IMG/VR virus record: IMGVR_UViG_3300037478_000191
Location: 1 to 52,787 of that record
Origin: a virus
Lineage: Duplodnaviria > Caudoviricetes
Length of the DNA stretch: 52,787 nt
Reading direction: 5' to 3' (one strand)
The notes below the pieces were generated by a model. It did no database searches, was not told the origin of the DNA, and saw only the letters and a program-made list of their open reading frames with translations. Positions within the stretch are counted from its first letter, which is position 1. Every line of letters begins with the position of its first letter. Shown here one piece after another: positions 827-29,422 of this stretch. A program made the translations under genes and the position numbers.

Positions 827-1476
827 GCGCCTTAATCGATATCAGCGGCAACAAGTACGGTCGCCTTACCGTCATTGAAAAATCGGGGAGCCGTAAGGTC
901 AAGGGCGGGACGAGGGTAACATGGCGCTGCCTTTGCGAATGCGGGAAAGAGATCGAGACAGATGGCCACAGCTTAAAGAGTGGTCACTCCAGATCGTGCG
1001 GCTGTTTGCTCTCTGATGTGACAATCGCAAGAAGCAGAACGCATGGCCTCTCTCGGAAGCATCCAATCGAGTACCGCGTGTGGAAAAACGTTCGGGCGAG
1101 GTGCAATACACCAACTGACAGCGACTATCATTTATACGGTGGCCGAGGGATTTCAGTTTGTGATCGCTGGGAAAGCTTCGCCAATTTCTATGCCGATATG
1201 GGGGCACGCCCCTCACAAAAGCATTCGATAGATCGTCGTGACACAAACGGTAATTACGAACCCGACAACTGCCGATGGGCCACGACGAAAGAGCAAGCGC
1301 AGAACACGCGCGCATGCCGCCACATAACGATTGATGGTGAAACGAAGGTTCTGAATGAGTGGGCGAGGGTACACAAGATCGATCGATCTAAGGTTTGGTA
1401 TCGCCTCAAGGTTGGGTGGTCTGTAAAGCAGGCGTTTGGAATTGAGCCGCATGAACGTGCGCGCGCAACTGCCTGA
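823..1476 (+). CDS. HNH homing-endonuclease-like protein
   Basis: GRLTVI..WRCLCECG..SCGC, YGGRGISVCDRW, SIDRRDTNGNYEPDNCRWAT..EQ..N motifs. Confidence 0.9.
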   Translation: MSALIDISGNKYGRLTVIEKSGSRKVKGGTRVTWRCLCECGKEIETDGHSLKSGHSRSCGCLLSDVTIARSRTHGLSRKHPIEYRVWKNVRARCNTPTDSDYHLYGGRGISVCDRWESFANFYADMGARPSQKHSIDRRDTNGNYEPDNCRWATTKEQAQNTRACRHITIDGETKVLNEWARVHKIDRSKVWYRLKVGWSVKQAFGIEPHERARATA

Positions 1477-3223
1477 TCCGTTCCGCTGCTTATTCGAGCC
1501 TGCCAGATATATTGTTTTCCACGGTGGCAGAGGCGGGGCGAAGTCGCACAGCATTGCCACTGCCCTATTAATCAGGGCAGCACAGCAACGCTTAAGAGTA
1601 CTGTGCTGCCGTGAGACACAACGATCAATTCGGGATTCCGTAAAGCGTCTTCTGGACGACAAAATCGTAGCCTGCGGCCTGACGGACTTCTACGATAGCA
1701 TCGAGACTGAGATCCGCGGAGCCAATGGCTCGCTCTTCGTGTTCGCTGGTCTCAGGACCGATCCAAACACGATCCGATCGCTTGAAGGCATCGATATTGC
1801 GTGGGTCGAAGAGGCCCACAGCGTTAGCCAGACATCGCTGAACATCCTGATCCCGACGATCCGCAAGCCGGATTCGCAGATCATTTTTTCGTTCAATCCT
1901 CGGGACAAGAAAGACCCCGTGGACGCCATGTTCAGAAGCGGCACGCCTCCGCCGAATGCTATAGTCAGGCAGGTGAACTGGGACGATAATCCGTGGTTCC
2001 CCGACGTGCTGCAGGCGGAGCTTGAATGGGACCGCGATCGCGACCCTGACAAATACGCCCATGTCTGGGGCGGCGGTTATGTGGTTCACTCAGAATCCCG
2101 CGTCTTCAAGAACTGGAAGATCGGCGAAGAGGAGATACCAGCGGATGCGAGGCCATATTACGGTGCTGACTGGGGCTTTGCAACAGACCCAGCCGTTCTT
2201 GTCCGCTCATGGCTCATTGGTCCGAAACATCTCTACATTGACGCCGAGGCCTACAAGGTAGGCTGCGAAATTGACGAGACACCGGAACTGTTCGACCAGA
2301 TCGATGACGGTCATGCACGCAAATGGCCGATCAAGGCAGACTCCGCGCGCCCTGAAACGATATCGTACATGCAGCGTCATGGGTATCCGCATATCGTGGC
2401 GGCAACCAAGGGGCCAGGATCGGTCGAAGATGGCGTTGAGTTTCTGAAAAGCTATGACATCACAGTGCACCCGCGATGCAAGCATGTCATCGACGAGCTT
2501 ACCTATTACTCGTACAAGGTCGATAGGCTTACAGGCGATGTTCTGCCGGTTCTTGAGGACAAAAAGAACCACACCATTGATGCGTGCAGGTATAGCACGG
2601 AGGGTATCCGCATGTCCCTCGTAGGCGACCAGCCGGAGCAGGATTTCCTGTTTGATCCAGCAAAAGTCCAGGTGCTCACCGAATGGCCGCAGGTCTATGC
2701 TTTGGACATTGACGGCGGCACGGCCTCGATAGTCTGGGGCGCTCACGATGTCCACAGCGACACGGTATATCTATACAAGGAATATGTTGAGGACAAGGCG
2801 AGATTAGAGACATGGGCGGCCGGAATTCGCAAGCGCGGCCGCAATATTCCGGGTATATTCGACATGACGGCTCGGCGGCGGACCGAAGAGCAGGGCGAAC
2901 GGATAGTTGAAAGCCTGCTTGACCAGAGCCTTGATATCTACACGAGCGAGGCTGATGTTGAAAGCGCAGCTTCGGAGATCAACGGAAGAATTGCGACGCA
3001 ACAGCTTAAAGTCGCCTCGAATCTCACGAACTGGCTCACACAGTACCGCGCCTATCGCCGTGACGCCAAGGGTGATATTGTCGAGGAACGCAACGGCCTG
3101 ATGCATGCGACGGGTTTGCTGCTGATCTCGGGATTGAGCGTCTCCCACGTTGATGAGCGCGTTGCTGACGATGCAATGGCAGACTGGGGAGATCAGTCGC
3201 GTAATCCGGTGACGGGGTATTGA
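1451..3223 (+). CDS. Terminase large subunit (PBSX family) with an extra C-terminal degenerate nuclease domain
   Basis: Walker A GGRGGAKS, Walker B AWVEEA, FSFNP, nuclease GADWGF..DP / ADSARPE / NHTIDACRY; ATG 1451 preferred over TTG 1436. Confidence 0.95.
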   Translation: MNVRAQLPDPFRCLFEPARYIVFHGGRGGAKSHSIATALLIRAAQQRLRVLCCRETQRSIRDSVKRLLDDKIVACGLTDFYDSIETEIRGANGSLFVFAGLRTDPNTIRSLEGIDIAWVEEAHSVSQTSLNILIPTIRKPDSQIIFSFNPRDKKDPVDAMFRSGTPPPNAIVRQVNWDDNPWFPDVLQAELEWDRDRDPDKYAHVWGGGYVVHSESRVFKNWKIGEEEIPADARPYYGADWGFATDPAVLVRSWLIGPKHLYIDAEAYKVGCEIDETPELFDQIDDGHARKWPIKADSARPETISYMQRHGYPHIVAATKGPGSVEDGVEFLKSYDITVHPRCKHVIDELTYYSYKVDRLTGDVLPVLEDKKNHTIDACRYSTEGIRMSLVGDQPEQDFLFDPAKVQVLTEWPQVYALDIDGGTASIVWGAHDVHSDTVYLYKEYVEDKARLETWAAGIRKRGRNIPGIFDMTARRRTEEQGERIVESLLDQSLDIYTSEADVESAASEINGRIATQQLKVASNLTNWLTQYRAYRRDAKGDIVEERNGLMHATGLLLISGLSVSHVDERVADDAMADWGDQSRNPVTGY

Positions 3224-3917: not shown

Positions 3918-4111
3918 TGAACGAAGCCACAAAAGCCATTCTTGAAATGGGCGACCAATCGAGGGAAATCGAAGCTCTCATGGTTGCGTTGGCCAAAGCC
4001 ACCGATGATCAAGGCCGCCGGATGCCGATTGAAATCAGTGATCTGATCCTGCTCGTTCCCGAGATCGCCAAGCTTGTTTCTGAGCGCCGCGCCATGAGCG
4101 CACAAGACTAG
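3914..4111 (+). CDS. Hypothetical protein
   Basis: Coupled ORF in small-gene block. Confidence 0.55.
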   Translation: MMNEATKAILEMGDQSREIEALMVALAKATDDQGRRMPIEISDLILLVPEIAKLVSERRAMSAQD

Positions 4112-4119
4112 GAATAGTC

Positions 4120-4425
4120 ATGAACGAATCCGAACGTTCTAAATATTGGCAGCATCTTGCCGATCAGATATGGGAAGCCATTCAGCGCCCGTCGCCTGCT
4201 GTGACGCGAGACGAGATCGCGCTTCTGTCTGAAAAGGCGTTTCGGGCATTTTATTGCGAACTGTATCTGCGGGTCAATGCGGATGGGTATGTTCCTCCGA
4301 AATACGGCAAGAGCTTCGCTGATGTCACCCTGAGCGAAGCCACCATTGCTGATTCTATCGAATTTTTAGTGCAAACCTCGCTTGATCCCGAGCCGTCTCA
4401 GGATGTCACTGGAAGTGGCGATTGA
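4120..4425 (+). CDS. Hypothetical protein
   Basis: ORF with AGGA RBS. Confidence 0.55.
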   Translation: MNESERSKYWQHLADQIWEAIQRPSPAVTRDEIALLSEKAFRAFYCELYLRVNADGYVPPKYGKSFADVTLSEATIADSIEFLVQTSLDPEPSQDVTGSGD

Positions 4426-5121: not shown

Positions 5122-5289
5122 ATGGAAAAGATGACTGAAACCGCGATAAATCTCCGCAAGCAGATTGCGATGGGCATGCACGAAGGAATGTATAAGGACG
5201 GCGGCAAGATGGAAGCCAAATCCGGCAAGAAGAAGCCGAAGAAGGCCAAGCCTCCGATGGGCAAGAAGTCAGGCAGGCGCGGCTACTGA
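5122..5289 (+). CDS. Lys/Met-rich microprotein (55 aa; not in ORF track)
   Basis: MEKMTETAINLRKQIAMGMHEGMYKDGGKMEAKSGKKKPKKAKPPMGKKSGRRGY; AGAAGGA RBS; TGA overlaps the portal ATG. Confidence 0.65.
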   Translation: MEKMTETAINLRKQIAMGMHEGMYKDGGKMEAKSGKKKPKKAKPPMGKKSGRRGY

Positions 5290-7640
5290 TGGCATTTCTT
5301 GACGCTGCCATGACCGGCGCGGCAGGTCAACCCGCGCCGCCGGCGAACGGCCAGCTATTCGACGAGATACTCGCGCTTGAAGGGGGCGAGGACATTCCGG
5401 CCGAACAGGAAGAACGCCCCTTCGAACAGCTCGTCAACTGGATAAAGTCGAAGAACATCGCGGAAGAATTCGACGATACCGAGCTGCAGAAGATCGGCCG
5501 TCAGGTTATCCGCGAGTTCGACATCGATGACCAGAGCCGTTCCGAGTGGATGGAGGAAAACCGCGAAGCCTTCAAGCTCGCGATGCAGGTGGCGGAAGAA
5601 AAGACCCATCCGTGGCCGCGCGCGAGTAACGTGATCTTTCCGCTGATGACGGTTGCCGCGGTGCAGTTTGCCGCCAGAGCTTATCCTGCTATCGTTGCCG
5701 GGCGCAACGTCGTCAAGGGTGTCGTCATCGGCTCTGATGAAGGCACGCCGCAGATCGGTCCTGACGGCACACCGGTTGTCCAGATGCCCCAGGGTCAGTC
5801 CCAAGGGGCGATGCAGGGTCAGATGGGGCAAGGCCAGCCGCCGATGCCACAGGGCCAGCCGGGAGAAGCTGAGCAACCCCAGCAACTGCCTCAGCCCGTA
5901 TGGCAGACCCCGCCCGGTGCAAAACGCCAGCGCGCCGACAAGATCGCGTCCCACATGTCGCACCAGCTCCTTGACGAGATGGACGACTGGGAAGAGGACA
6001 CCGACAAGCTCCTGCATATCCTGCCGATCGCCGGGTGCTGCTTCCGCAAGACCTATTTTGATCCTGGTACGGGCCAGAACATTTCCGATCTGGCGATGGC
6101 GGAAAACGTTGTCATCAATTACTGGGCCAAGTCGATGACCCGCGCCGCGCGGATCTCCGAACGCGTCTGGTTTTATCCCCATGAGATCGAAGAGAACGAG
6201 CGCTCCGGCATCTGGCTGGAAAATGAATATCGCCATGCCGTCGAATCCGGCGATGATGAAGAGAGCCGGATTTCATCAGAGGACGACGACGCCCCGCATG
6301 AATTCATCGAGCAGCACCGCAGGCTTGATCTCGATGATGACGGCTATGCGGAACCCTATATCGTCACGGTTCACCGCGCAACATCCAAGGTGGTGCGGAT
6401 CGTCGCCCGCTATGATCCGGACGGCGTGAAGATCCGCGGCGACAAGATCGCACGCATCGAAGCCGTCGAGTATTATACCAAATACGATTTCATGCCGAAC
6501 CCTGAAGGCGGGATTTACGGCATCGGCCTCGGCAAGCTGCTGTCACCGCTCAATCATTCCGTCAATACGATCATCAACCAGTTGATCGATGCCGGCACGC
6601 TGGCGAACACGCCGTCCGGCTTTATCGGGCGCGGACTGTCGATGCATTCCGGCGCGGTCAAGTTCAAGATGGGCCAGTTCACGCCGGTCAATTCGCCCGG
6701 CTCGCGCATTCGCGAAGCGATCGTGCCGTTCGAATTCAAGGAGCCGAGCCAGGTATTGTTCATGCTGCTCGGCCTTGTCATCGATGCGGCGAAAGATGTG
6801 GCGTCGATCAAGGATGTGCTGACCGGCGAGACCGTATCGGCCAACATGTCCCCGACGACGCTGATGGGCATGATCGATCAGGGCTTGCAGGTGTTCGTCG
6901 GGATTTACAAGCGCGTTCACCGCGCGCTGAAGAAGGAACTCGACAAGCTTTACCGCCTCAACCGTGTCTATCTGGAAGACAATGCCGGGTTCGAGAATGG
7001 CGGGATCTGGACGCAGATCACCCGTGAGGATTACGAACACGGCTCCGGCGTCCAGCCGATCTCCGACCCGTCGATGGTCTCCAACCAGCAGAAGCTGGCG
7101 CGCGCCGAACTGTTGCGCAGCTACACCGGAGACCCGGACATCGACCAGATCAAGATCAAGCGCCGGACACTTGAGGCGGCTGATATCGAGGATATCGACG
7201 ATCTGTTCGTGAAGCAGAAGGGGCCGGACCCGGCAATGGTTGCGATGCAGGCGCAGATGGAGTTGGAACAGAAAAAGCTTCAGGTCGCTGAAGCCAAGGA
7301 AATGCGCGAAGCTCAGCAGTTCCAGGTAGAGGAACGGCGCGAGGCTGCGTTGTCGCGGGCCAAGGAAATCGAGACTTACGCCCGCGCCGTGCACTATCTT
7401 GCACAAGCGGACAAGGCAAGTGCAGATCAGGATATCGGCTGGGCGCGCGAGCAGCTCAGTTTCCTGAAGTTGCGCATGGAGGGCCTGAACGGGCGAACGG
7501 CACCGGCAAAGCCAAAGACCCAAGGAAGCAGACAGCCGCCAATGCCGAACGCCCGGCTTGCGCCGGATGGTAATTTCTACGTGCCCGATGAGACGCGGCC
7601 GGGACGGTTCCTGCGCGTGATTGAAGACATGGCTGCCTGA
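5289..7640 (+). CDS. Portal protein with C-terminal barrel and extra tail module
   Basis: 783 aa; PWPRASNV.FP...AAVQFAARAY, LDLDDDGYAEPYIVTV, INQLIDAGTLAN.P.GF motifs of podovirus portals. Confidence 0.9.
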   Translation: MAFLDAAMTGAAGQPAPPANGQLFDEILALEGGEDIPAEQEERPFEQLVNWIKSKNIAEEFDDTELQKIGRQVIREFDIDDQSRSEWMEENREAFKLAMQVAEEKTHPWPRASNVIFPLMTVAAVQFAARAYPAIVAGRNVVKGVVIGSDEGTPQIGPDGTPVVQMPQGQSQGAMQGQMGQGQPPMPQGQPGEAEQPQQLPQPVWQTPPGAKRQRADKIASHMSHQLLDEMDDWEEDTDKLLHILPIAGCCFRKTYFDPGTGQNISDLAMAENVVINYWAKSMTRAARISERVWFYPHEIEENERSGIWLENEYRHAVESGDDEESRISSEDDDAPHEFIEQHRRLDLDDDGYAEPYIVTVHRATSKVVRIVARYDPDGVKIRGDKIARIEAVEYYTKYDFMPNPEGGIYGIGLGKLLSPLNHSVNTIINQLIDAGTLANTPSGFIGRGLSMHSGAVKFKMGQFTPVNSPGSRIREAIVPFEFKEPSQVLFMLLGLVIDAAKDVASIKDVLTGETVSANMSPTTLMGMIDQGLQVFVGIYKRVHRALKKELDKLYRLNRVYLEDNAGFENGGIWTQITREDYEHGSGVQPISDPSMVSNQQKLARAELLRSYTGDPDIDQIKIKRRTLEAADIEDIDDLFVKQKGPDPAMVAMQAQMELEQKKLQVAEAKEMREAQQFQVEERREAALSRAKEIETYARAVHYLAQADKASADQDIGWAREQLSFLKLRMEGLNGRTAPAKPKTQGSRQPPMPNARLAPDGNFYVPDETRPGRFLRVIEDMAA

Positions 7641-8710
7641 TGCCTCGTTTCGAACCCGTCGATCATGATCCATTCGCGCCGCGACCGATGGCGCTGATGC
7701 CGGTAGACAATGACCCGTTCGTATCGCCGGAAGACGCGTTTGCCTACGGACAGGGCATATCACCCGAAGCGACATGGCGGAATCTGCTTCCAGCCGCCGA
7801 GCTTGGCTTGGGGCTGGCTCCCGGCTCCGGCGAAGCGATGTCAGCCCGCGATGCGTGGGATGCCTCTGGACGGGCTGGCGCGGCGCTCACAGAGGGTAAT
7901 TTCGGGGAAGCCGCCTCTGACTACCTCAACATGGGAACCGGCCTCCTCGGCGCAATCCCCGGCGCTGGCATCATCGCCAGGGGCACGAAACGCGGTGCTG
8001 CATGGATGGACCGGAATTTGCCGGAAGGGTTTAACCGGCTGCTGGACTCTGTGTATCCGCAAGGCTATGCGCCGAATGATACGGCGTATGCCATACCCGC
8101 ATGGCATGGTTCGCCGAATGACTTCAAGAAGTTTGAAGATCGCGTTGGCCAGCACACTGGCGATGTCGATCCTGCTTATGGTCATCACCTATCAGAAAAC
8201 CGAAGTGTTTCCGAGAGATATGCGACAGGACCGGCTGCGCAAGGCCGGGGCAAGATATATCAGGTTGAGATAGGCGCAGAACCAGAGCACTTTGTGAGAT
8301 TCAACGAACCCCTTGGCGCTCAAAGCCAATATGTGCAAAAAGCGTTGGCTGACGCTGGACTGACCGACCAGATGGGGGGGCTTTTTGGCGGCATGGCTAG
8401 AACTCCGGAAGGCGCTCAAAAACTAAGGGCAGCGGGGATTGCCGGTGTTTCGTACAGGCAGAACGCAATGCCTGCAAGGTCTGGATTGTCGCCTACTCAG
8501 CCAACGACAAATTACGTCGTCTTTGACCCCGAGTTGCTAAAAATTCAGAGCAAGGCAACATTGAAAGGGCAGCAGTACGGCGACTCTGCACCCAAGCTCC
8601 CGATCTCGGAAAAACCGATGACGCCAGAAGAGTTTGACCGCCGGGCATCCAAAGCTCTGTTGAAAACGCAGGACGTTCCAGACGACCAGCAGATAGTAAG
8701 GTTCAAATGA
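7640..8710 (+). CDS. Putative virion-delivered effector with ADP-ribosyltransferase (ART-PolyVal-like) domain
   Basis: N-terminal PVD[HN]DPF x2; Gly/Ala helical linker; WHGSPNDF.KF, G..LSE...S..YA, G.IY.VEI, LR.AGI.G..Y, TNYVVFD motifs. Confidence 0.7.
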   Translation: MPRFEPVDHDPFAPRPMALMPVDNDPFVSPEDAFAYGQGISPEATWRNLLPAAELGLGLAPGSGEAMSARDAWDASGRAGAALTEGNFGEAASDYLNMGTGLLGAIPGAGIIARGTKRGAAWMDRNLPEGFNRLLDSVYPQGYAPNDTAYAIPAWHGSPNDFKKFEDRVGQHTGDVDPAYGHHLSENRSVSERYATGPAAQGRGKIYQVEIGAEPEHFVRFNEPLGAQSQYVQKALADAGLTDQMGGLFGGMARTPEGAQKLRAAGIAGVSYRQNAMPARSGLSPTQPTTNYVVFDPELLKIQSKATLKGQQYGDSAPKLPISEKPMTPEEFDRRASKALLKTQDVPDDQQIVRFK

Positions 8711-8997
8711 CAGACGACCTTAACCCGAAAGACCTGACCGAAGACAATTTCGGTTTATGGCGTCGGCATCCGGCGACCAAGGCATTCATGCAATATCTGA
8801 ATGACTATGCCCAGACGCTTGCCGATGGCCACATGAACAGATGGCTCGAAGGCAAGACGGAACCGGAACTTGAGGCGGAAGCATGCGGCCGCATGCTGAC
8901 CCTGCGTGAGATCACGGCGTTGGAGTACAGTGACATCAAAAACCTCTATGGAATAGACGAGGAAGACATCGACAATGCAGGACAAATTACTGAGTAA
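8707..8997 (+). CDS. Conserved head-module protein
   Basis: F..W..HP.TK.F...L motif, a type of gene usually found just after podovirus portals. Confidence 0.7.
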   Translation: MTDDLNPKDLTEDNFGLWRRHPATKAFMQYLNDYAQTLADGHMNRWLEGKTEPELEAEACGRMLTLREITALEYSDIKNLYGIDEEDIDNAGQITE

Positions 8998-9394
8998 AAC
9001 CCGTATCGGGCAGTATGTTGAAAGTGCGTGGACTGGCCAGAATACATCCGGGATTACCCCGATCGGTGACCAGATCCTGATCCTGCCTGACAAATCAGTC
9101 GAAATGACGTTGGGCGGCATCATAATGCCGGAGTCGCTGCGTGAGACGCATAGTCTTGCCGCAGAAAGCGGCGTGATTGCAGCTATTGGCGCTGGCGCAT
9201 GGACCTGGAACACGGACAGGACGCGCAGATTCGAAGGCGTAAAGCCGGAAGTTGGCCAGCGTATCTGCTTCACCCGCTATTCGGGTATGGAGCGATTCGG
9301 CAAAGACGGCGAGATGTATCGCATCATGGAAGATAAATGCATCGGCGCGCTCGTCGATGTCGAGGAAATCAATCCTCCGGCTCAAGCCGCCTAG
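8975..9394 (+). CDS. groES: GroES/Cpn10-like co-chaperonin
   Basis: PIGDQILILP...T.GGII.PES...G.I.AIG.GA...VG....F.RYSG......YRIM.D. Confidence 0.85.
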   Translation: MQDKLLSKTRIGQYVESAWTGQNTSGITPIGDQILILPDKSVEMTLGGIIMPESLRETHSLAAESGVIAAIGAGAWTWNTDRTRRFEGVKPEVGQRICFTRYSGMERFGKDGEMYRIMEDKCIGALVDVEEINPPAQAA

Positions 9395-10440
9395 AGCGTC
9401 GGGCATAAAGCCTGAATCGGGGATTCCCTTTTTCTGCAAACAGTGATTCACCATTTTCGGAGGTGGATCATGGGCAAAGCGGTTTCATCGGATTTACGTC
9501 TTCGTATGGTGCGCGGCATTGCGGCCGGCAAGTCGCGACGGTCTGTGGCAACGCAGTTTGAAGTCTCAGCTTCGACAGCGGTGCGGGTGCAGGCCCGCTA
9601 TATCGCCACTGGTTCGGTTGCACCGTCCAAGCAGGGACGTCCCAAAGGGTCTGGCAAGCTCGGCCCGTGCCGTCAGGCCATTATCGCCAAGGTGAAGGCG
9701 CAGCCGGACATCACCATGCCGGATCTTGCCGCCTGGCTGGAGGTGGAGCACGGTGTGACGATCGATCCCTCGAACCTGTCCAAGTTCTTGTGCCGGCACG
9801 GGTTCACTTATAAAAAAAACGCTGCTGGCGTCGGAGAAAGAACGCGCCGACGTGAAGGCGGCGCGCCGTGAATGGCGTGAGCGGCGACAGCCCTTCATGC
9901 GCCGCCAGCCGGGTCGGCTCGTCTTCCTCGATGAGACGAGCGTAAAGACCAACATGACACCCTTGCGTGGGCGCAGCCTGAAGGGAGAGCGGCTCATCGC
10001 TGACGCCCCCTTTGGCAAGTGGCAGACACAAACCTTCATTGCAGGCCTGCGGTGTGATGAGCTTGTTGCTCCCTGGATCATCGAGGGGGCTATGGATGGT
10101 CCTCTTTTCGATAGCTACATCCGCACACAACTCGTGCCGGACCTCAAGCGCGGCGATGTGGTGATCCTGGACAATCTGAATGTCCACAAAAGTCCGCGTG
10201 CCGCCGAGGCCTTGGCCCAAGTTGGCGCCTGGTTCCTGTTCCTGCCGAAATACTCTCCCGATCTCAATCCAATCGAAATGGCCTTCGCCAAGCTCAAAAC
10301 TCTGCTCAGAAAGGCAAAAGCCCGCACCTATGATGCCCTCTGGCGCGCCGTCGGTAATATCTGCAACCTCTTCGAGCCCCAGGAATGTTGGAATTATCTC
10401 AAGGACACCGGTTACGTTGCTGATTAATCGCCCGACGCTC
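9394..10440 (+). mobile_element. IS630-family insertion sequence (1047 bp) with TA target duplication
   Basis: Terminal IRs GAGCGTCGGGC (9394-9404 / 10430-10440) flanked by TA at 9392-9393 and 10441-10442. Confidence 0.95.
9470..10427 (+). CDS. IS630 transposase, two ORFs joined by a frameshift at an A8 run (9812-9819)
   Basis: HTH orfA (9470-9871) plus DDE orfB (VFLDET, VILDNL, YSPDLNPIE). Confidence 0.92.
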
Positions 10441-19398: not shown

Positions 19399-19845
19399 AT
19401 GGCTATTCCCACCGAATACCGTCCAACTCCGATCCCGGAGCTTGACGGCAACGTTCCCATCGTAGATCCGAAAACTGGACTGCCGACGATGCAGTTCCTG
19501 CAAGCCTACGAGCGTTTCCGCAACTATGTCAATGGTGGCAACCGGGTCATCCCGTGCTCGGCCTCGACGGCATCGAACAAGATCACGCTGACGCCGAATG
19601 ATGCATCACCGATGATCGAAGGCTATCGGGATTACGAGATCTTCGTCGCGATAGCCGACGCAACGTCGGATGGCGATGTGACGGCCACTGTGGTTCCGAA
19701 AACGGGCGTTTTAGACACGCTGAAAGTCTTTAAAACGGACGGCGCGGCGCAAGCTACCACCGGAGATATCGTCTCGGGATCGCTGTATCTGTTCGTGTTC
19801 GGCGACCCGTATGACAGTGCGGCTGGCGGTTTCGTTCTTAAGTGA
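19399..19845 (+). CDS. Tail accessory protein (needle/plug position)
   Basis: P.VDP.TG.PT..F N-terminus; position after the gp10-like gene. Confidence 0.55.
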   Translation: MAIPTEYRPTPIPELDGNVPIVDPKTGLPTMQFLQAYERFRNYVNGGNRVIPCSASTASNKITLTPNDASPMIEGYRDYEIFVAIADATSDGDVTATVVPKTGVLDTLKVFKTDGAAQATTGDIVSGSLYLFVFGDPYDSAAGGFVLK

Positions 19846-20279
19846 CGATCCGCGAAGCCGTCCGCGCCGACATTCCGCACCTTGTCGTCATGGGTTTGCA
19901 CTTTGTCCGAAGTGGCGATTACGCCGGACATCTGGATGAAAACCCGGACGCGCTCTTCGATACCATGCTCCGGTTGATCGAGAGTGGAGACGCCCTCCTG
20001 CTCGTGCAGGGGGAAGACAAACCAACCGGGATGATCGGCGCGCTGATCTTCAGCCATCCATTATCACATCAGACCTTCTTCAGCGAACTGTTCTGGTGGG
20101 TTGAACCGGATCACCGCGGCAATGGTCTTGCTCTTCTCCGCATGGCGGAGAAGTGGGCAACGGCGCGCGGCGCATCTCACAGCATCATGATCTCCCCGGA
20201 TGAACGGGTTTCGCGTGTGTACGAAACGCTTGGCTACTCCCTTCTGGAGACCCACTACGTGAAGGAATTCCCTGAATGA
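19842..20279 (+). CDS. GNAT-fold acetyltransferase-like morphogenesis protein
   Basis: IREA..ADIP, ELFWWVEPDHRG.G..LL..AE.WA..RGA, YE.LGY. Confidence 0.85.
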   Translation: MTIREAVRADIPHLVVMGLHFVRSGDYAGHLDENPDALFDTMLRLIESGDALLLVQGEDKPTGMIGALIFSHPLSHQTFFSELFWWVEPDHRGNGLALLRMAEKWATARGASHSIMISPDERVSRVYETLGYSLLETHYVKEFPE

Positions 20280-20938: not shown

Positions 20939-22258
20939 ATGGCGAATTACTCAATTGCCCTAGGCGCTCAGCCGCCGCAGATCGACGTGGGCAACGCGCT
21001 CGCGCTCGCCGCGCAGATGCAGCGCCAGAAGGCCGCCGAAGCGCAGGCGCAGCAGGGCATGGAACTGGATCGTCAGCGTTTTGGCTTGCAGCAGCAGCAG
21101 TTCGGTTTGCAGCAAAGCGAATTCGAAAAGGCACAGGCCGAAAAGCAGGCGCAGAGAAACGCGCTGGCAGAATATACCAAGGCACAGCAAGGAGGCGATG
21201 AGAACGCGTTGTCGCGGCTCTCAGCCTATCCTGACCTGCAACAGAAGGTTCTGGCGGTTCGCAATGGAATGGCGGAAGCCGAGCGCGGGCAATTCGATCA
21301 GAAATTGATCCGCAATGCGCGGCGGGCGCAATCCGTCATGGGCGTACAGGGCGACGCCAAGCAGCAGGCGTGGATGGGAGCACTTGATGACGCCGTTCAG
21401 TCCGGTGACATTACCCCGCAAATGTACGAGCAATATGCAGCACAGCCGCCAAACGATCTGATGTTGCAGAATATCGTGGAACAGGCGGTGCCGATCCAGC
21501 AGCTATATCAGCCGCCGACTGCGAACATGCAGGAGCTGGAAGCGGCGGGCATTGAGCCGGGCACACCGGAATTCCGGGAACGGATCGCACCCGCGCCGCT
21601 GCCCAAGTTCGAGAAGCTCGACAACAGACTGGTTCGGATCAATCCGGATGGCAGCACTGAGGATATGACGCCGCCCGGTATGCCGATGACATCTGAAAAG
21701 CCTCCTGCTGGCTATCGCTACACACCGGACGGACAGAGCCTCGAAGCAATCCCCGGCGGCCCGGCAACGAAGCTTCCAGGCGATATGGCCGGACGCGTCG
21801 CGGCGCTGCAAACCGCCAAAGAGAGCTTCGCTGATGTCCGCAACTTCTACGAGGGACAGGACTTGGGAGATCGCGCGAGCCAGCTTATCAACAGCGGGAG
21901 CGCAGGACGCGTTGAACGTAATGTAAGACTAGCGATTGAAGCGGCGCTGCGCGCGATGACCGGCGCAGCCGCTCCCGAAAGCGAGGTCGAGAATTATCTG
22001 AATATCTTCGGACCGTCCGCGCTCGACACGCAGGCGACAATCAAGGACAAGCTCGACCGTCTTGAGAGCTTCATGGGTAACGTTGAGGCGAACATTGCGC
22101 AGGGGCGCAGTTCTGCTCCCGGTGCGGACGGAATGAAGGATGCATCCAGACTACAACAGGAAGAACCTACCCAAATCACCACGCAGCAGGAATATCAGGC
22201 ATTGCCACCTGGAACGCAATACATCGCACCTGACGGCAATATCAGGATTAAGCAGTGA
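20939..22258 (+). CDS. DNA ejection protein (gp20 position)
   Basis: Gln-rich helical N-terminus, PPAGYR...LEAIPGGPA, C-terminal 'EYQALPPGTQYIAPDGNIRIK' module. Confidence 0.7.
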   Translation: MANYSIALGAQPPQIDVGNALALAAQMQRQKAAEAQAQQGMELDRQRFGLQQQQFGLQQSEFEKAQAEKQAQRNALAEYTKAQQGGDENALSRLSAYPDLQQKVLAVRNGMAEAERGQFDQKLIRNARRAQSVMGVQGDAKQQAWMGALDDAVQSGDITPQMYEQYAAQPPNDLMLQNIVEQAVPIQQLYQPPTANMQELEAAGIEPGTPEFRERIAPAPLPKFEKLDNRLVRINPDGSTEDMTPPGMPMTSEKPPAGYRYTPDGQSLEAIPGGPATKLPGDMAGRVAALQTAKESFADVRNFYEGQDLGDRASQLINSGSAGRVERNVRLAIEAALRAMTGAAAPESEVENYLNIFGPSALDTQATIKDKLDRLESFMGNVEANIAQGRSSAPGADGMKDASRLQQEEPTQITTQQEYQALPPGTQYIAPDGNIRIKQ

Positions 22259-24639
22259 TGGCAGAATTCTGGGAGAATGACCCCGTTGCCAACAGCGGCC
22301 AGGCTTCTGATTGGTGGAAGAACGATCCAGTTGCCGCACCGCTACGCGATCGGCTATTCGAAAAGCCAGAAGATGAATCTCTATACAAGAGAGAACTGGC
22401 GAAAATCACCGAAGAGCGGTCAAAGCCGCGCGTGCCGACCCCCGATGACGAATTCTCCCCCGAGGAACTGGCGCAAAACCGCGTCATGCAGCTTCGTGGG
22501 CGGGAGCATGAACAGCAGGGTTTTGACGAATCCCGCACGCCGCTGAAGCGCGTAACGGATGCCTCGACGTTTACCTTGTCCGCAATTCCGCGCGCGTTGA
22601 CAGGTGGCCGTCATGGCCTCGGCGACGTTGCCGGGCTTGTGTCGGAAGAAGCCGGGGAAACCTATAATCAGGCTGAAGCCGATTTTGCGCGTGCAAATCG
22701 TGGCTGGTTGGAACCTGTCGCGAAAGTTGGCGAGGCAACGATCGGCATTCCGTTCTTGCAATCGATGGGCGGCGTTCCCGGTCAGATGATGAGGACTGGA
22801 CGCGCGGCTGCGCAGCGCTACGCCGCGCCGGTGACGAACCGGTTCGCGTCGCAGAGGCAACCCGGACCCGCGCCCGTGGCAACGCCAGAACAAGCCTACG
22901 GCCCGGCGCAGCGCATTCAGGACCGCCAAGCCTTCGTTGACGAGGGTATTCCGGAATTTGCGCCTGCGTTCGGATCGAAGGGCCTCGCCCGCACCGGACG
23001 CACGATCGAGGAAGTTCCGCTTGTCGGCGGAACGGTCAAGGTGCCGAAAACCGCCGTTGAGCAAGCTATGCTTGAAAGGCAGCGCAATATCGCCTCACAG
23101 GCGGGCGCTGCGGCCAGTCAGGAAGAAGTCGGGCGGATATCGCAGGGCGGGCTTTCGCGGTTCCGTGGGGCAAATCTGGAGGACCTGGAGCGGTCTCGCG
23201 TGCAAGGGCTTGGGTTGACGCCAGACCGACCGCCTTCTGCTCAGGCTGGCAATGTTACCATCAATCGCCCAAGCCAGTTGAATACTGCGCAGATGACGGA
23301 CGCGCAATTGCGCGCGGCGGCGGAATCTCGCGTCAATCTACCGGGCTCAACCCGGTCCCGCGTGGAAGATTTGACGCAGCAGGAAGTGCAGAGGATCGTC
23401 TCTCTCCCCGCGAGAGACACAAGCTTTGCCACAAAAGCATCAGCACTATATAGGCAAGCGGAAGACGCCTTGCCACGCACCATGCGCGTGAACGATACGG
23501 CCAATCCTGGACTTCTTGCTACGCGGAATTCCCAGCGCGTAGTTAATGGTATGTTGCGACAAGAGCAATCCGCAAGCATCAGCGGGGGCGTATTGGAAGG
23601 CCGGTTTGGGCAGTTGGTGCAACGTCTTGCCAATCCACGCTCGAACTTTACACTGGATTCGATGCGTGCGGCGCGCACGGAAGTCGGACGCGCGCTGTCC
23701 AGCTTTGGCGAATTCGACGTGCGACTTGATCGCACCCAGCTAAAGCAGCTTTATGGCGCGATCTCAGGCGACTATCAATCTGGCCTCGTGGCGCTTGCGG
23801 CCCGTGCACGGCGCGGCGCGCGTGATGGAAGCGTTCCGGTCTCTGTCGCCAATGAAGCCGACCGCGCCTTGCAGCGCTACCGTGTTGCTGACAGATACTT
23901 CCGCAACGGCATTGAGCGCATGGATCGCTTCATGAGCGTGCTCGGCGCGGATACGCTGGAACAGGCATCGAAACGCATCGCCTCCTATCTGCGCGAGAAT
24001 ACGCAGAATATCCGCTCTCTGGAAAGCATGTCATCGTCTCTCCGGCCGGAGGAATGGCGCGCGGTGCTCGGCAATGTCGTCGAGCAGCTCGGCAGGTTGA
24101 CGCCCGGCGCGCGAGAGGCTGAGCGGGTTTTCTCATTTGAGCGCTATGCAACCGATTGGGCCAAGATCAGCCAGAACCCGCGCGTCATAGCGCTGTTCCG
24201 GCGCTCGCTCGGTGATGAAACCGTGCGCTCGCTTCAGAATATGGGACGCATCGCCGAACGGATGAAATATTACGAGTCCACAAAGAACTATAGCGGATCG
24301 GCCTACACGGCAGGGGCGGGGGCTGGTATGGCAGCACTACTTACGCCGGGCGCGTGGCCTTTGCTGATTGCCGGTATTGCAGGCCCTGGCGTCGTCGGCA
24401 AGGTCATTACCAGCCGCTCGTTCGCCCGGTGGGTCAATTCGCTGAATCGCGCTCAGGTGCGGGTAGGCTCTTCCGTCGAAGCGACAAAGCAGGCGGCTCG
24501 TCCTCATCTTCAGCGATTGGCACGGATCGCAGCCAAAGAACGCGATCCCGAATTAGCGGCCATGCTGAGCGCTCTCGGAGTGGCGATCGAACAGCAGTTG
24601 GAAGCCGCCACTCGTCCAGAAACCAGCACAGCACAATGA
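22258..24639 (+). CDS. Large DNA ejection protein (gp16 position)
   Basis: 793 aa helical, Ala/Arg-rich; C-terminal N.SG[ST]A plus Gly-rich hydrophobic hairpin; N-terminal W.NDPV x2. Confidence 0.72.
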   Translation: MAEFWENDPVANSGQASDWWKNDPVAAPLRDRLFEKPEDESLYKRELAKITEERSKPRVPTPDDEFSPEELAQNRVMQLRGREHEQQGFDESRTPLKRVTDASTFTLSAIPRALTGGRHGLGDVAGLVSEEAGETYNQAEADFARANRGWLEPVAKVGEATIGIPFLQSMGGVPGQMMRTGRAAAQRYAAPVTNRFASQRQPGPAPVATPEQAYGPAQRIQDRQAFVDEGIPEFAPAFGSKGLARTGRTIEEVPLVGGTVKVPKTAVEQAMLERQRNIASQAGAAASQEEVGRISQGGLSRFRGANLEDLERSRVQGLGLTPDRPPSAQAGNVTINRPSQLNTAQMTDAQLRAAAESRVNLPGSTRSRVEDLTQQEVQRIVSLPARDTSFATKASALYRQAEDALPRTMRVNDTANPGLLATRNSQRVVNGMLRQEQSASISGGVLEGRFGQLVQRLANPRSNFTLDSMRAARTEVGRALSSFGEFDVRLDRTQLKQLYGAISGDYQSGLVALAARARRGARDGSVPVSVANEADRALQRYRVADRYFRNGIERMDRFMSVLGADTLEQASKRIASYLRENTQNIRSLESMSSSLRPEEWRAVLGNVVEQLGRLTPGAREAERVFSFERYATDWAKISQNPRVIALFRRSLGDETVRSLQNMGRIAERMKYYESTKNYSGSAYTAGAGAGMAALLTPGAWPLLIAGIAGPGVVGKVITSRSFARWVNSLNRAQVRVGSSVEATKQAARPHLQRLARIAAKERDPELAAMLSALGVAIEQQLEAATRPETSTAQ

Positions 24640-28891: not shown

Positions 28892-29422
28892 ATGCCAGAA
28901 CTTATTTCACACGAACGTCTGAATAGACGGCTGAGCTATGACCCGGACACGGGGTTTTTCACGTGGAAGCACTCTCCTAATGCGTGGAAGGGATGGAACG
29001 AAAAGTTCGCAGGAAAGCGAGCTGGATGCTTGTCTAGAGGATACTGGCTGATCCGGCTTGAGGGGAGGATATACAAGGCGTCACGCCTTGCTTGGTTCTA
29101 TATGACGGGTCATTGGCCGCAAGGTCAAGTTGATCATAGCAGCGGCGATTCTCTGGACGATCGTTTTTCAAATCTCCGCGATGCGTCCCCGTCGGAAAAT
29201 ACTCGCAATAGACAAATGTTGCCAACCAATTCGAGCGGATACAAAGGCATCTACTGGCTTAAGGCGAACAGGAAATGGCGAGCTAAGGTGGGGCTTAATG
29301 GCAAGAGCCATCACTTAGGGTTATTTGACGACCCGGTTGAAGCCGCACTTGCCTATGACGCTGCGGCTTCAAAACTTCATGGCAAGTACGCCAAAACAAA
29401 CAAATCGTTAGGTATACTCTGA
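28892..29422 (+). CDS. HNH endonuclease with C-terminal AP2 domain
   Basis: YDPDTG.F.W, RLAW.YMTG.WP..VDH....DDRFSNLR.A...N, NSSG.KG..W...KW.A...HLG.F. Confidence 0.9.
   Translation: MPELISHERLNRRLSYDPDTGFFTWKHSPNAWKGWNEKFAGKRAGCLSRGYWLIRLEGRIYKASRLAWFYMTGHWPQGQVDHSSGDSLDDRFSNLRDASPSENTRNRQMLPTNSSGYKGIYWLKANRKWRAKVGLNGKSHHLGLFDDPVEAALAYDAAASKLHGKYAKTNKSLGIL

What the first reader, a model, noticed from the sequence alone, without database searches (positions are those of the whole stretch)
7530..7725. Candidate 'hook-and-loop' cargo-docking code: portal C-terminal APDGN module followed by PVDxDPF repeats on the next protein
Seen: beyond its coiled-coil barrel and a Pro/Lys linker the portal ends in a compact module, PPMPNARLAPDGNFYVPDETRPGRFLRV. 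The translationally coupled next gene begins with two tandem motifs, PVDHDPF and PVDNDPF. The same arrangement recurs 14.5 kb away between two unrelated ejection genes (...YIAPDGNIRIK stop / FWENDPV..WWKNDPV). Both upstream modules contain APDGN and both downstream N-termini carry a doubled acidic-aromatic DP[FV] peptide. Inference: small beta-hairpin reader modules bind cognate N-terminal peptides and chain proteins for loading into and ejection from the head. Here the portal barrel would tether an enzymatic effector. I know of no description of this pairing.
Basis: partly seen in the sequence, partly recalled or inferred. Interest (0 to 1): 0.85.

Follow-up and report, generated by a model that had tools for sequence, protein, structure and literature searches.

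The report
Paired docking tags joining phage virion proteins
The phage portal protein ends in a tiny folded module and the next gene starts with a doubled short peptide; such matched module/peptide pairs recur across thousands of uncultured phages and probably clip injected enzymes and ejection proteins onto their neighbours inside the virus head.

Summary
In this complete 52.8-kb phage record, the portal (5289-7640) ends in a ~30-residue module. The overlapping next gene (an ART-PolyVal-like enzyme) starts with PVDHDPF and PVDNDPF. A second, non-homologous pair joins two ejection-type proteins at 22.2 kb.

I scanned a viral contig collection with patterns for the tail only. Three tail families (A, this portal; B, the second pair; D, seen in relatives) sit at protein C-termini and are followed by their own peptide.
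- Cognate peptide doubled: 41 of 72 (A), 31 of 62 (B), 53 of 64 (D).
- Same motifs doubled in control ORFs: 2, 4 and 0 of 4506.
- Non-cognate doubled peptide: 1 case in all.

Tail A sits on at least four portal families. Its partners are polyvalent-effector-type proteins. Conservation is at protein level. AlphaFold2 folds both tails confidently. Pfam, NCBIfam, the PDB and the searched papers hold no description.

Physical binding was not shown. Direct docking is my best reading (about 0.6). The shared "APDGN" is only a common turn, and no protein carries both tail and peptide, so these are pairs, not chains. One earlier scan note covers the ART gene of this same window; none was found on other DNA.

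The parts
5289..7640 (+). Portal gene (783 aa), SU10-like
   Evidence: phrog_1216 portal, E 1.8e-20. PF23899 SU10_portal scores 29.5 bits against a cut-off of 30. tblastn finds phage portals or head-to-tail connecting proteins.
7530..7637 (+). Tail A: C-terminal mini-domain of the portal (36 aa modelled; conserved core about 7545-7619, ARLAPDGNFYVPDETRPGRFLRV)
   Evidence: The profile of 63 tails matches here (E 7e-19). AF2 gives mean pLDDT 89.7 with three short strands. The tail is absent from portal relatives at 35-52% identity.
7638..7642 (+). TGATG stop/start overlap of portal and cargo gene
   Evidence: Read directly. All P0001/P0002-type junctions use the same overlap. Across phages the junction bases vary.
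7640..8710 (+). Cargo gene: 356-aa ART-PolyVal-like protein
   Evidence: PF18760, E 5.2e-6, 27.7 bits, below the cut-off of 31.2. Present only in the near-identical relatives L002/L003.
7655..7675 (+). Peptide A, copy 1 (PVDHDPF)
7700..7720 (+). Peptide A, copy 2 (PVDNDPF)
20939..22258 (+). Upstream protein of the second pair (439 aa, Gln-rich, no family hit)
   Evidence: Carriers of the same tail type in other phages fall in endolysin-domain, 'lytic tail protein' and 'released from the phage upon host infection' PHROG families.
22166..22255 (+). Tail B: C-terminal mini-domain (…EYQALPPGTQYIAPDGNIRIKQ)
   Evidence: The profile of 50 tails matches here (E 6e-18). AF2 gives mean pLDDT 85.3, a short helix plus a hairpin.
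22258..24639 (+). Downstream protein of the second pair (about 793 aa from ATG 22258)
   Evidence: phrog_36512, E 8e-5. Partners of tail B elsewhere include 'internal virion protein with endolysin domain', 'DNA ejection protein' and transglycosylase.
22267..22287 (+). Peptide B, copy 1 (FWENDPV)
22312..22332 (+). Peptide B, copy 2 (WWKNDPV)

Best explanation
The window holds two cognate docking pairs.

Each pair has two halves:
1. A self-folding module of about 20-30 residues at the extreme C-terminus of one virion protein.
2. A short acidic/aromatic/proline peptide, usually present twice, on a predicted floppy N-terminus of the protein encoded next.

The two pairs here:
- Type A: consensus tail GARxAPDGxxYVPDPxRPGKYLxV with peptide PV[DE]x[DN]PF. 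It links the portal's inner end to an ADP-ribosyltransferase-like enzyme.
- Type B: consensus tail ALPxG[ST]x[FY]xAPDGxxRxKP with peptide W[WQ]xx[AD]P[VIL]. It links two ejection-type proteins.

Proposed mechanism:
- The module binds the peptide.
- This tethers the downstream protein to its neighbour, so that it is built into the procapsid at the portal (type A) or into the internal ejection-protein assembly (type B), and leaves through the portal at infection.
- The types are mutually orthogonal, so one head can hold several specific links.
- The doubled peptide gives avidity, or bridges two tails of an oligomer.

What is shown:
- The two halves are present, and each co-occurs specifically with its own type.
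- Selection acts at protein level.
- The tails are predicted to fold.
- The carrier and cargo families are as listed.

What is inferred:
- Physical binding, its stoichiometry, and the role in loading and ejection.
For: | Tail | Unique C-terminal tails | Cognate peptide >=1 in first 70 aa of nearest next ORF | Cognate peptide >=2 |
|---|---|---|---|
| A | 72 | 61 | 41 |
| B | 62 | 49 | 31 |
| D | 64 | 62 | 53 |

- Among 4506 other ORFs of the same loci, the doubled motifs occur 2 (A), 4 (B) and 0 (D) times.
- Non-cognate doubled motifs: 0 for every combination except B-peptide after D-tail, which occurs once.

2. Reverse scan, peptide A only:
- 20 in-frame hits had an upstream ORF of at least 100 aa, and 19 of these end in tail A.
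- The 20th (L076) has the tail in another frame.

3. Most 'misses' still hold the peptide:
- It is moved one gene further on (L162, L084, L186, L193), sits at the C-terminus of the next small protein (L190, L194), or was missed by my ORF caller (L218, L219, L272, L298, L318, L324).
- So the pair persists without overlapping genes.

4. One orthologous gene pair shows junction swapping. The bodies of P0002 relatives are 61-79% identical, yet the junction is replaced as a unit by five tail/peptide types. Tail and peptide always change together.

5. Tail A is portable:
- It sits on P22-like (13 of 52) and SU10-like (7 of 52) portals and on four PHROG portal families.
- It also sits on adaptor-like and lysin-like proteins.
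- A profile search of 1.84 billion cluster representatives finds 1324 proteins at E <= 0.001.
- In 142 of the best 150, the match ends within 6 residues of the C-terminus.

6. Partners of tail A are effector-type proteins (47 scanned): ART-PolyVal in 6, WHH in 2, and 1 to 2 each of InPase, LPD38, LPD23, Tox-ART-HYD1, DNases, GNAT and DarB-like.

7. Selection is on the protein. Codons for identical residues differ in 57-66% of sequence pairs, and mean nucleotide identity is 60-69%. Junction bases also vary.

8. When the D motif is not C-terminal, the next gene lacks the peptide (0 of 8).

9. AF2 folds the tails with mean pLDDT 89.7 and 85.3.

10. Among this portal's relatives, the tail and the ART gene are present together (L002, L003) or absent together (7 loci).
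Against: - No measurement or confident model of binding exists.
- Tail and peptide lie within about 150 nt of each other. Linkage alone makes them travel together, and many of the sampled loci are related.
- Residue-level covariation was not significant once sequences were clustered (tail DGx[H/aromatic]Y against peptide VD[H/Y/F]DPF; 5/0 against 7/6 clusters; Fisher p 0.11).
- The peptide regexes were written after seeing the data.
- Some tails have no partner nearby: the B-like tails of L268, L302, L328 and L330, and L281.
- Three complete or near-complete relatives have no tail A at all, so the portal link is dispensable in this phage group.
- The cargo's ART assignment is below Pfam's cut-off.
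- Only a few cultured phages carry a pair, and no virion data for them were seen.
Confidence: 0.6

Rival explanations
1. Recombination linker. The conserved junction would be a cassette boundary, like the VENN or DPxGL motifs that delimit swappable toxin tips (recalled from the polymorphic-toxin literature). It would let phages exchange downstream cargo genes, and the two halves would not bind each other.
For: - Cargo downstream is extremely diverse.
- The junction is swapped as a unit within one orthologous gene pair.
- The tail plus the ART gene look like one inserted block.
Against: - Homologous recombination needs DNA identity. Synonymous sites are near saturation: 57-66% of codons for identical residues differ, and nucleotide identity is 60-69%.
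- Both halves stay conserved when another gene separates them.
- The tail is a predicted folded module tied to the C-terminus.
- This rival does not explain why the peptide is doubled.
Confidence: 0.12
2. Common third partner. Tail and peptide would each bind another virion component (scaffold, capsid inner surface, portal crown or DNA) rather than each other. Adjacency would only reflect co-regulated head genes.
For: - The peptide can sit at either terminus and on a separate small protein.
- The T4 capsid-targeting sequence works through the scaffolding core (recalled; listing only).
Against: - Type specificity is strict: A with A, B with B, D with D, with 1 non-cognate doubled case in all.
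- No protein carries both elements.
- Tail and peptide change type together at one junction.
- A third partner would have to co-vary as well. None is seen, but I did not search for one.
Confidence: 0.15
3. Cis-acting expression element. The conserved residues would be by-products of a translational-coupling or RNA signal at overlapping genes.
For: Many junctions overlap: TGATG in 16 and TAATG in 7 of 70 type-A junctions, and in all P0001/P0002-type junctions.
Against: - Junction bases and spacing vary from -23 to +59 nt.
- Synonymous sites are free to vary.
- The conserved core lies 20-60 nt or more from the start codon.
- Pairs persist when genes are separated.
Confidence: 0.04

Closest known systems
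SPP1 gp7 / MuF family bound to the portal, and MuF- or portal-fused effectors
   Same: - The gene lies immediately downstream of the portal gene.
- The protein is targeted to the procapsid interior by binding the portal.
- The strategy is used to carry toxins and enzymes, including an ADP-ribosyltransferase (passages read in PMC6316719, PMC5576092 and PMC5512222).
   Different: - There is no MuF domain here. P0003 has none, and no MuF Pfam family is among the 14 families matched by 47 partners.
- The address is a 7-residue peptide, usually doubled, read by a 30-residue tail added to the portal.
- The link is non-covalent, comes in several orthogonal types, and is also used between non-portal proteins.
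Capsid-targeting sequence of phage T4 internal proteins and Alt
   Same: A short N-terminal address brings injected proteins, among them an ADP-ribosyltransferase, into the prohead (recalled; search listings only; Alt passage in PMC5512222).
   Different: - The T4 tag acts through the scaffolding core and is cut off by the prohead protease (recalled).
- Here the tag has a matched reader on the neighbouring gene's product.
- No cleavage site was looked for.
Docking domains of modular PKS/NRPS subunits and cohesin-dockerin pairs (analogy only, recalled)
   Same: - The C-terminal element of one gene product matches the N-terminal element of the next.
- Several orthogonal types keep partners in order.
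- Dockerin is internally duplicated, as the peptide is here.
   Different: Unrelated sequences, organisms and process. No homology was tested or claimed.

Membership tests
MuF / SPP1 gp7 portal-binding head proteins | MuF domain (Pfam Phage_Mu_F and relatives) | tested here: not met
   The Pfam scan of P0003 gives only ART-PolyVal. No MuF family is among the 14 Pfam families matched by 47 tail-A partners at E <= 1e-3. One partner hits a PHROG 'minor head protein'.
MuF / SPP1 gp7 portal-binding head proteins | Gene immediately downstream of the portal gene | tested here: met
   The genes overlap by one base.
MuF / SPP1 gp7 portal-binding head proteins | Binds the portal oligomer and is packaged | not testable with these tools
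   Needs biochemistry or virion mass spectrometry.
ART-PolyVal (PF18760) effector domain | Profile match above Pfam's gathering score | tested here: inconclusive
   27.7 bits against a cut-off of 31.2; E 5.2e-6 over residues 155-301. 6 of 47 partners of tail A match this family, best E 9e-20. Catalytic residues were not examined.
SU10-like portal (PF23899 / phrog_1216) | Profile match over the portal core | tested here: met
   phrog_1216, E 1.8e-20. PF23899 scores 29.5 bits, just under its cut-off of 30.
WW domain (a lead of my own from the look of the tails) | Sequence or fold match to WW | tested here: not met
   No WW hit for any of 63 tails at E <= 1. Foldseek against the PDB gives nothing below E 3.5, and the best rows are propeller-blade designs.
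T4-type capsid targeting sequence | N-terminal tag removed by the prohead protease | not tested
   No protease gene or cleavage motif was examined.

The most novel reading that the evidence does not exclude
Tailed phages would use a modular, recombination-swappable 'address code' of at least five mutually orthogonal tail/peptide families.

Families:
- A, B and D are documented widely.
- Two more were seen at the same junction in relatives.

What the code would do:
- Decide which effector or ejection protein is clipped to which virion protein, including the inner end of the portal.
- So set the content and exit order of the protein cargo injected with the DNA.

If true, changing a 7-residue tag would re-address a protein into or out of the phage head.
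Probability: 0.4. Interest if true: 0.9.

Novelty: new variant of a known kind. Interest (0 to 1): 0.85.

Why it matters
How short-tailed phages recruit and order their internal 'ejection' proteins and injected enzymes is poorly understood. The ejection-protein review I searched holds no passage on recruitment or incorporation.

A matched tail/peptide code would help in four ways:
- It gives a concrete, testable rule for that recruitment.
- It explains how very different effectors can be placed after very different portals.
- It allows better annotation. About 1300 protein clusters carry tail A alone, and no Pfam or NCBIfam model covers it.
- It offers small orthogonal tags for loading chosen proteins into phage heads.

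Cultured carriers exist for tests: Pseudomonas phages LKA5 and F116 and other phages with a tail-D match (type D), and Pseudanabaena phage Pam5 (type A).

Tried and rejected
**Complex prediction.** I submitted portal residues 725-783 with ART residues 1-60, each with its own alignment. The score was 0.15 against a mark of 0.32, which the tool reads as no verdict. I count it neither way.

**WW-domain idea.** I dropped it.

**Solved structures.**
- Profiles of both tails found no homologue.
- The best hit is a propeller-blade-like stretch in 9m58 (E 3.5e-5).

**Homology between tails A and B.** Rejected.

**Chains of links.** Rejected. No protein carries both a tail and a peptide.

**Residue covariation.** Not significant at cluster level.

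**Searches that added little.**
- tblastn of P0003 against deposited phages found no match.
- The genome-contig scan with the portal gave one truncated locus.
- Alignment-based scans for more P0002 relatives added few loci.
- A DNA-mode search was run by mistake in place of protein mode, but it still found Pam5.
- tblastn with a type-B tail gave only E = 8 hits, which I did not use.
- Searching the other tail types in the relatives' records found tail A in 1 of 5.

**Earlier, stricter or cruder counts.** These are superseded, but I state them for completeness.

| Family | Earlier count | Control |
|---|---|---|
| A | 59 of 70 with >=1, 40 with >=2 | 7 and 4 of 1591 |
| B | 35 of 62 with >=1, 18 with >=2 | 4 and 0 of 1497 |
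| D | 57 of 61 with >=1, 49 with >=2 | 10 and 0 of 1539 |

**Rows dropped before counting.**
- Duplicate junctions (same tail and same start of the next ORF).
- Matches with no stop before the locus end.
- Tails more than 30 aa from the stop (25 aa); the ones are counted apart there.

**Papers.**
- Passages only (find mode): PMC5512222, PMC8954989, PMC6316719, PMC5576092.
- All others: listings and abstract starts only.
They may list motifs or neighbourhoods that bear on novelty.
- 'Not in print' rests on searches of this library alone.
Full report
**What is in the window.**
- The window is a whole virus record of 52,787 bases, rated 100% complete.
- Its plus-strand structural block runs from the large terminase (1436-3223) through the genes below.
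  - Portal: 5289-7640 (phrog_1216, E 1.8e-20).
  - A 356-aa protein: 7640-8710.
  - A small conserved gene: 8707-8997.
  - A GroES-like gene: 8975-9394.
  - Further head and tail genes.
  - Two large proteins without strong family hits: 20939-22258 and 22258-24639.
- The portal ends ...PPMPNARLAPDGNFYVPDETRPGRFLRVIEDMAA. Its stop overlaps (TGATG) the start of the next gene, which begins MPRFEPVDHDPFAPRPMALMPVDNDPF.
- That next protein matches ART-PolyVal at E 5.2e-6, below Pfam's cut-off.
- At 22.2 kb, the first large protein ends ...ALPPGTQYIAPDGNIRIKQ. Through another TGATG overlap, the second begins MAEFWENDPV...DWWKNDPV.
- It is not chance. The type-A peptide pattern occurs only at these two places in all six frames, against 0.15 expected per shuffled window. 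Each tail pattern occurs once, against 0 in shuffles.

**First clue from relatives.**
- Near-identical portals (L002 and L003, 96-97% identity) have both the tail and the ART gene.
- Seven portals at 35-52% identity (L004, L005, L007-L011) end before the tail. They are followed directly by the homologue of 8707-8997.
- L001 and L006 run off their contigs, and L012 is a fragment.
- So the tail and the cargo gene come and go together.

**Second clue, from the other junction.** Relatives of the 794-aa protein keep 61-79% identity in the body, but their first ~30 residues and the last ~25 residues of the upstream protein are replaced together.

| Loci | Upstream tail | Downstream peptide |
|---|---|---|
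| L021, L022, L035, L036-L038 | Type B | W-containing peptide, doubled |
| L017 | Portal-like (PNARQAQDGNWYVEQNGQYFRIDQ) | PVEQNPF / PVQGNPF |
| L018 (and L033, tail not on contig) | A third tail | PPPPPGF, twice |
| L019 | DGYRFKGGNPADPNSWERMQ | PWERYA / PWEKYA |
| L020 | A fifth tail | MF[DG]HLP, twice |

- In L024 and L025, a different downstream protein shares only its first 32 residues with the window's protein. It follows a type-B tail.

- I scanned a viral contig collection with degenerate DNA patterns for the tail alone, so nothing about the next gene was used.
- Tail position:
  - Tail A: the motif lies 18-28 residues from the stop in every match that has a stop.
  - Tail B: it lies exactly 19 residues from the stop in 53 of 62 unique junctions.
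  - Tail D: it lies 19-21 residues from the stop in 64 of 80 matches.
- I then took the ORF whose start lies nearest the stop and counted peptide motifs in its first 70 residues.

| Tail | Unique tails | Peptide A (>=1 / >=2) | Peptide B (>=1 / >=2) | Peptide D (>=1 / >=2) |
|---|---|---|---|---|
| A | 72 | 61 / 41 | 3 / 0 | 2 / 0 |
| B | 62 | 0 / 0 | 49 / 31 | 1 / 0 |
| D | 64 | 0 / 0 | 6 / 1 | 62 / 53 |
| Other ORFs >=100 aa, same loci | 4506 | 8 / 2 | 260 / 4 | 38 / 0 |

- The regexes were written after I had seen examples, and the B regex is loose. The doubled-motif columns are the safer measure.
- The reverse scan used peptide A after a TGATG junction. It gave 87 matches, of which 31 were in frame with a downstream ORF of at least 80 aa. 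Of these, 20 had an upstream ORF of at least 100 aa, and 19 of the 20 ended in tail A. The twentieth, L076, has the tail in another frame.

**The misses are instructive.** I inspected them by hand.
- Type A, peptide moved or at a C-terminus:
  - L162 (with duplicates L165 and L177) and L084 have a small lysozyme-like gene after the tail. That protein ends in ...PVDYDP[WF]. The next protein then starts with PV[DE]YDPF.
  - L190 and L194 also carry the peptide at the C-terminus of the next protein.
  - L186 and L193 have a small inserted ORF before the peptide-bearing gene.
- Type A, variants or my ORF-caller errors: L168, L170, L189, L198, L218, L219. L205 ends too early to tell.
- Type B, ORF-caller errors: L272, L298, L318, L324. 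Variants: L321, L326.
- Type B, no partner within 60 nt: L268, L302, L328, L330 (tails ending KQY[RQ]K) and L281.
- Two conclusions follow.
  - The pairing survives separation of the genes, which argues against a purely cis explanation.
  - The peptide is a portable motif, not strictly an N-terminal signal.
- When motif D is not at a C-terminus (8 junctions), the next gene never has the peptide.

**Who carries the modules.**
- Tail A, 52 proteins scanned:
  - P22-like portal in 13 and SU10-like portal in 7.
  - PHROG portal families 156 (16), 12082 (10), 1216 (7) and 18470 (4).
  - An unknown family, phrog_14911 (9), and head-tail adaptor (5).
  - Single lysin or ejection-protein hits.
- Partners of tail A, 47 scanned:
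  - ART-PolyVal (6) and WHH nuclease (2).
  - One to two each of InPase, LPD38, LPD23, Tox-ART-HYD1, phage lysozyme, GNAT, colicin-type and NucA/B DNases, DarB-like antirestriction, minor head protein and virion RNA polymerase.
  - This is the repertoire that Iyer et al. call polyvalent proteins and predict to be packaged and injected. They describe covalent fusions to MuF and portal domains (PMC5512222, passages).
- Tail B carriers and partners are lysin-domain and ejection-type proteins:
  - 'Released from the phage upon host infection', many endolysin families and 'lytic tail protein'.
  - 'Internal virion protein with endolysin domain', 'DNA ejection protein' and transglycosylase.
- No carrier has a peptide and no partner has a tail (0 of 52, 0 of 47).

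**How widespread.**
- A profile of 63 A tails, searched against 1.84 billion cluster representatives, finds 1324 proteins at E <= 0.001 and 433 at E <= 1e-10.
- In 142 of the best 150, the last match ends within 6 residues of the C-terminus. Four carry two or three tandem tails.
- Among deposited phages, type A was found only in Pseudanabaena phage Pam5. It sits between a 'tail lysozyme' and the next protein.
- A type-D tail match was found in 26 records. These include Pseudomonas phages F116, LKA5 and H66, a Bradyrhizobium phage and an Aeromonas phage. I read the junction only in F116 and LKA5.
- In LKA5 the partner is a giant protein starting MADTSKPWEEF...KPWEEF.

**Nature of the two halves.**
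- AlphaFold2 folds the 36-residue tail A with mean pLDDT 89.7 as three short strands.
- It folds the 30-residue tail B with mean pLDDT 85.3 as a short helix plus a hairpin.
- Nothing known matches them:
  - Foldseek has nothing below E 3.5.
  - PDB profiles find only a propeller-blade-like stretch.
  - Pfam and NCBIfam have no consistent hit for 63 tails.
- Tails A and B are not detectably related.
- Selection acts on the protein. Codons for identical residues differ in 57-66% of sequence pairs, and mean nucleotide identity is only 60-69%. Junction bases and spacing vary.

**Interpretation.**
- My best reading is direct docking of the peptide on the tail.
  - At the portal, this would tether an injected enzyme to the portal's inner end. 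It would be a non-covalent, tag-sized counterpart of MuF/gp7-portal binding (PMC6316719 and PMC5576092, passages) and of the portal- and MuF-effector fusions.
  - Between ejection proteins, it would fix who sits next to whom.
- Several orthogonal types in one genome (A and B here) would keep the links specific.
- I put this at about 0.6, because binding is not shown and linkage alone keeps adjacent elements together.
- The residue-level covariation I tried was not significant after clustering.
- The rivals are a recombination linker, a common third partner, and a cis expression element. Their evidence is listed in their own sections.

**Novelty.**
- No paper in the searched library holds any of six motif strings.
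- Searches on polyvalent proteins, ejection proteins, capsid targeting and portal-bound cargo returned nothing that describes such pairs.
- The library omits much of the subscription literature and all supplements.
- I class the finding as a new variant of a known kind (portal-mediated and tag-mediated loading of internal proteins), with high interest.

Noticed in passing
window 9443-10427 (+): An IS630-type transposase sits in two overlapping frames (HTH_33 and relatives, then DDE_3 at E 1e-28). It lies inside the head-gene block, between the GroES-like gene and the next structural gene. A mobile element inside a phage morphogenesis operon is unusual.
   Followed up: partly
window 8975-9394 (+): Phage-encoded GroES-like co-chaperonin (Cpn10, E 1e-10; phrog_3188). 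It is conserved after the portal region in distant relatives as well.
   Followed up: partly
L499 (Pseudomonas phage F116, NC_006552.1) about 4079-4200 of the locus: In the F116 record, the doubled KPWEEF peptide after the tail of F116p58 lies in a 38-codon frame. That frame is cut off from the body of F116p59, whose annotated GTG start lies upstream in another frame. In LKA5 the same sequence is one continuous giant ORF. So the F116 record has a frameshift or a sequencing error here.
   Followed up: partly
L385, L386, L404, L420, L438 (viral contigs): In L385, L386, L404 and L420, the type-D module (DGYRFKGG[DN]P...W) stands at the N-terminus of proteins of 2200-2500 aa. It is repeated in L385 and L420. 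It also stands repeated at the start of an ORF that runs off the contig in L438. So this module is not only a C-terminal tail.
   Followed up: no
L015 2833-4170 and L016 2851-3744: Homologues of the window's ART-like body (71-75% identity from residue ~52) carry quite different N-termini without the peptide. They follow an amidase-like virion protein (phrog_5107) instead of a portal. The same enzyme seems to be re-addressed in another context.
   Followed up: partly
proteins P0007-P0010 and P0060: Four representatives carry two or three tandem A tails. P0060 (561 aa) carries five or six repeats of a related half-motif...GWWLASDGNWYAPE.
   Followed up: no
window 28892-29422 (+) and 19842-20279 (+): An HNH plus AP2-domain protein (homing-endonuclease-like) and a GNAT acetyltransferase lie among the tail and virion genes.
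   Followed up: no
L255, L333, L316, L322: Sub-variants of tail B go with different peptides. Tails ...GPDGHT... go with VNQFGDP[VI], present two or three times. Tails ...GPDGK[QR]Y[RK]K go with [SE]WL....PV[DE], present twice. These may be further specificities within one family.
   Followed up: no
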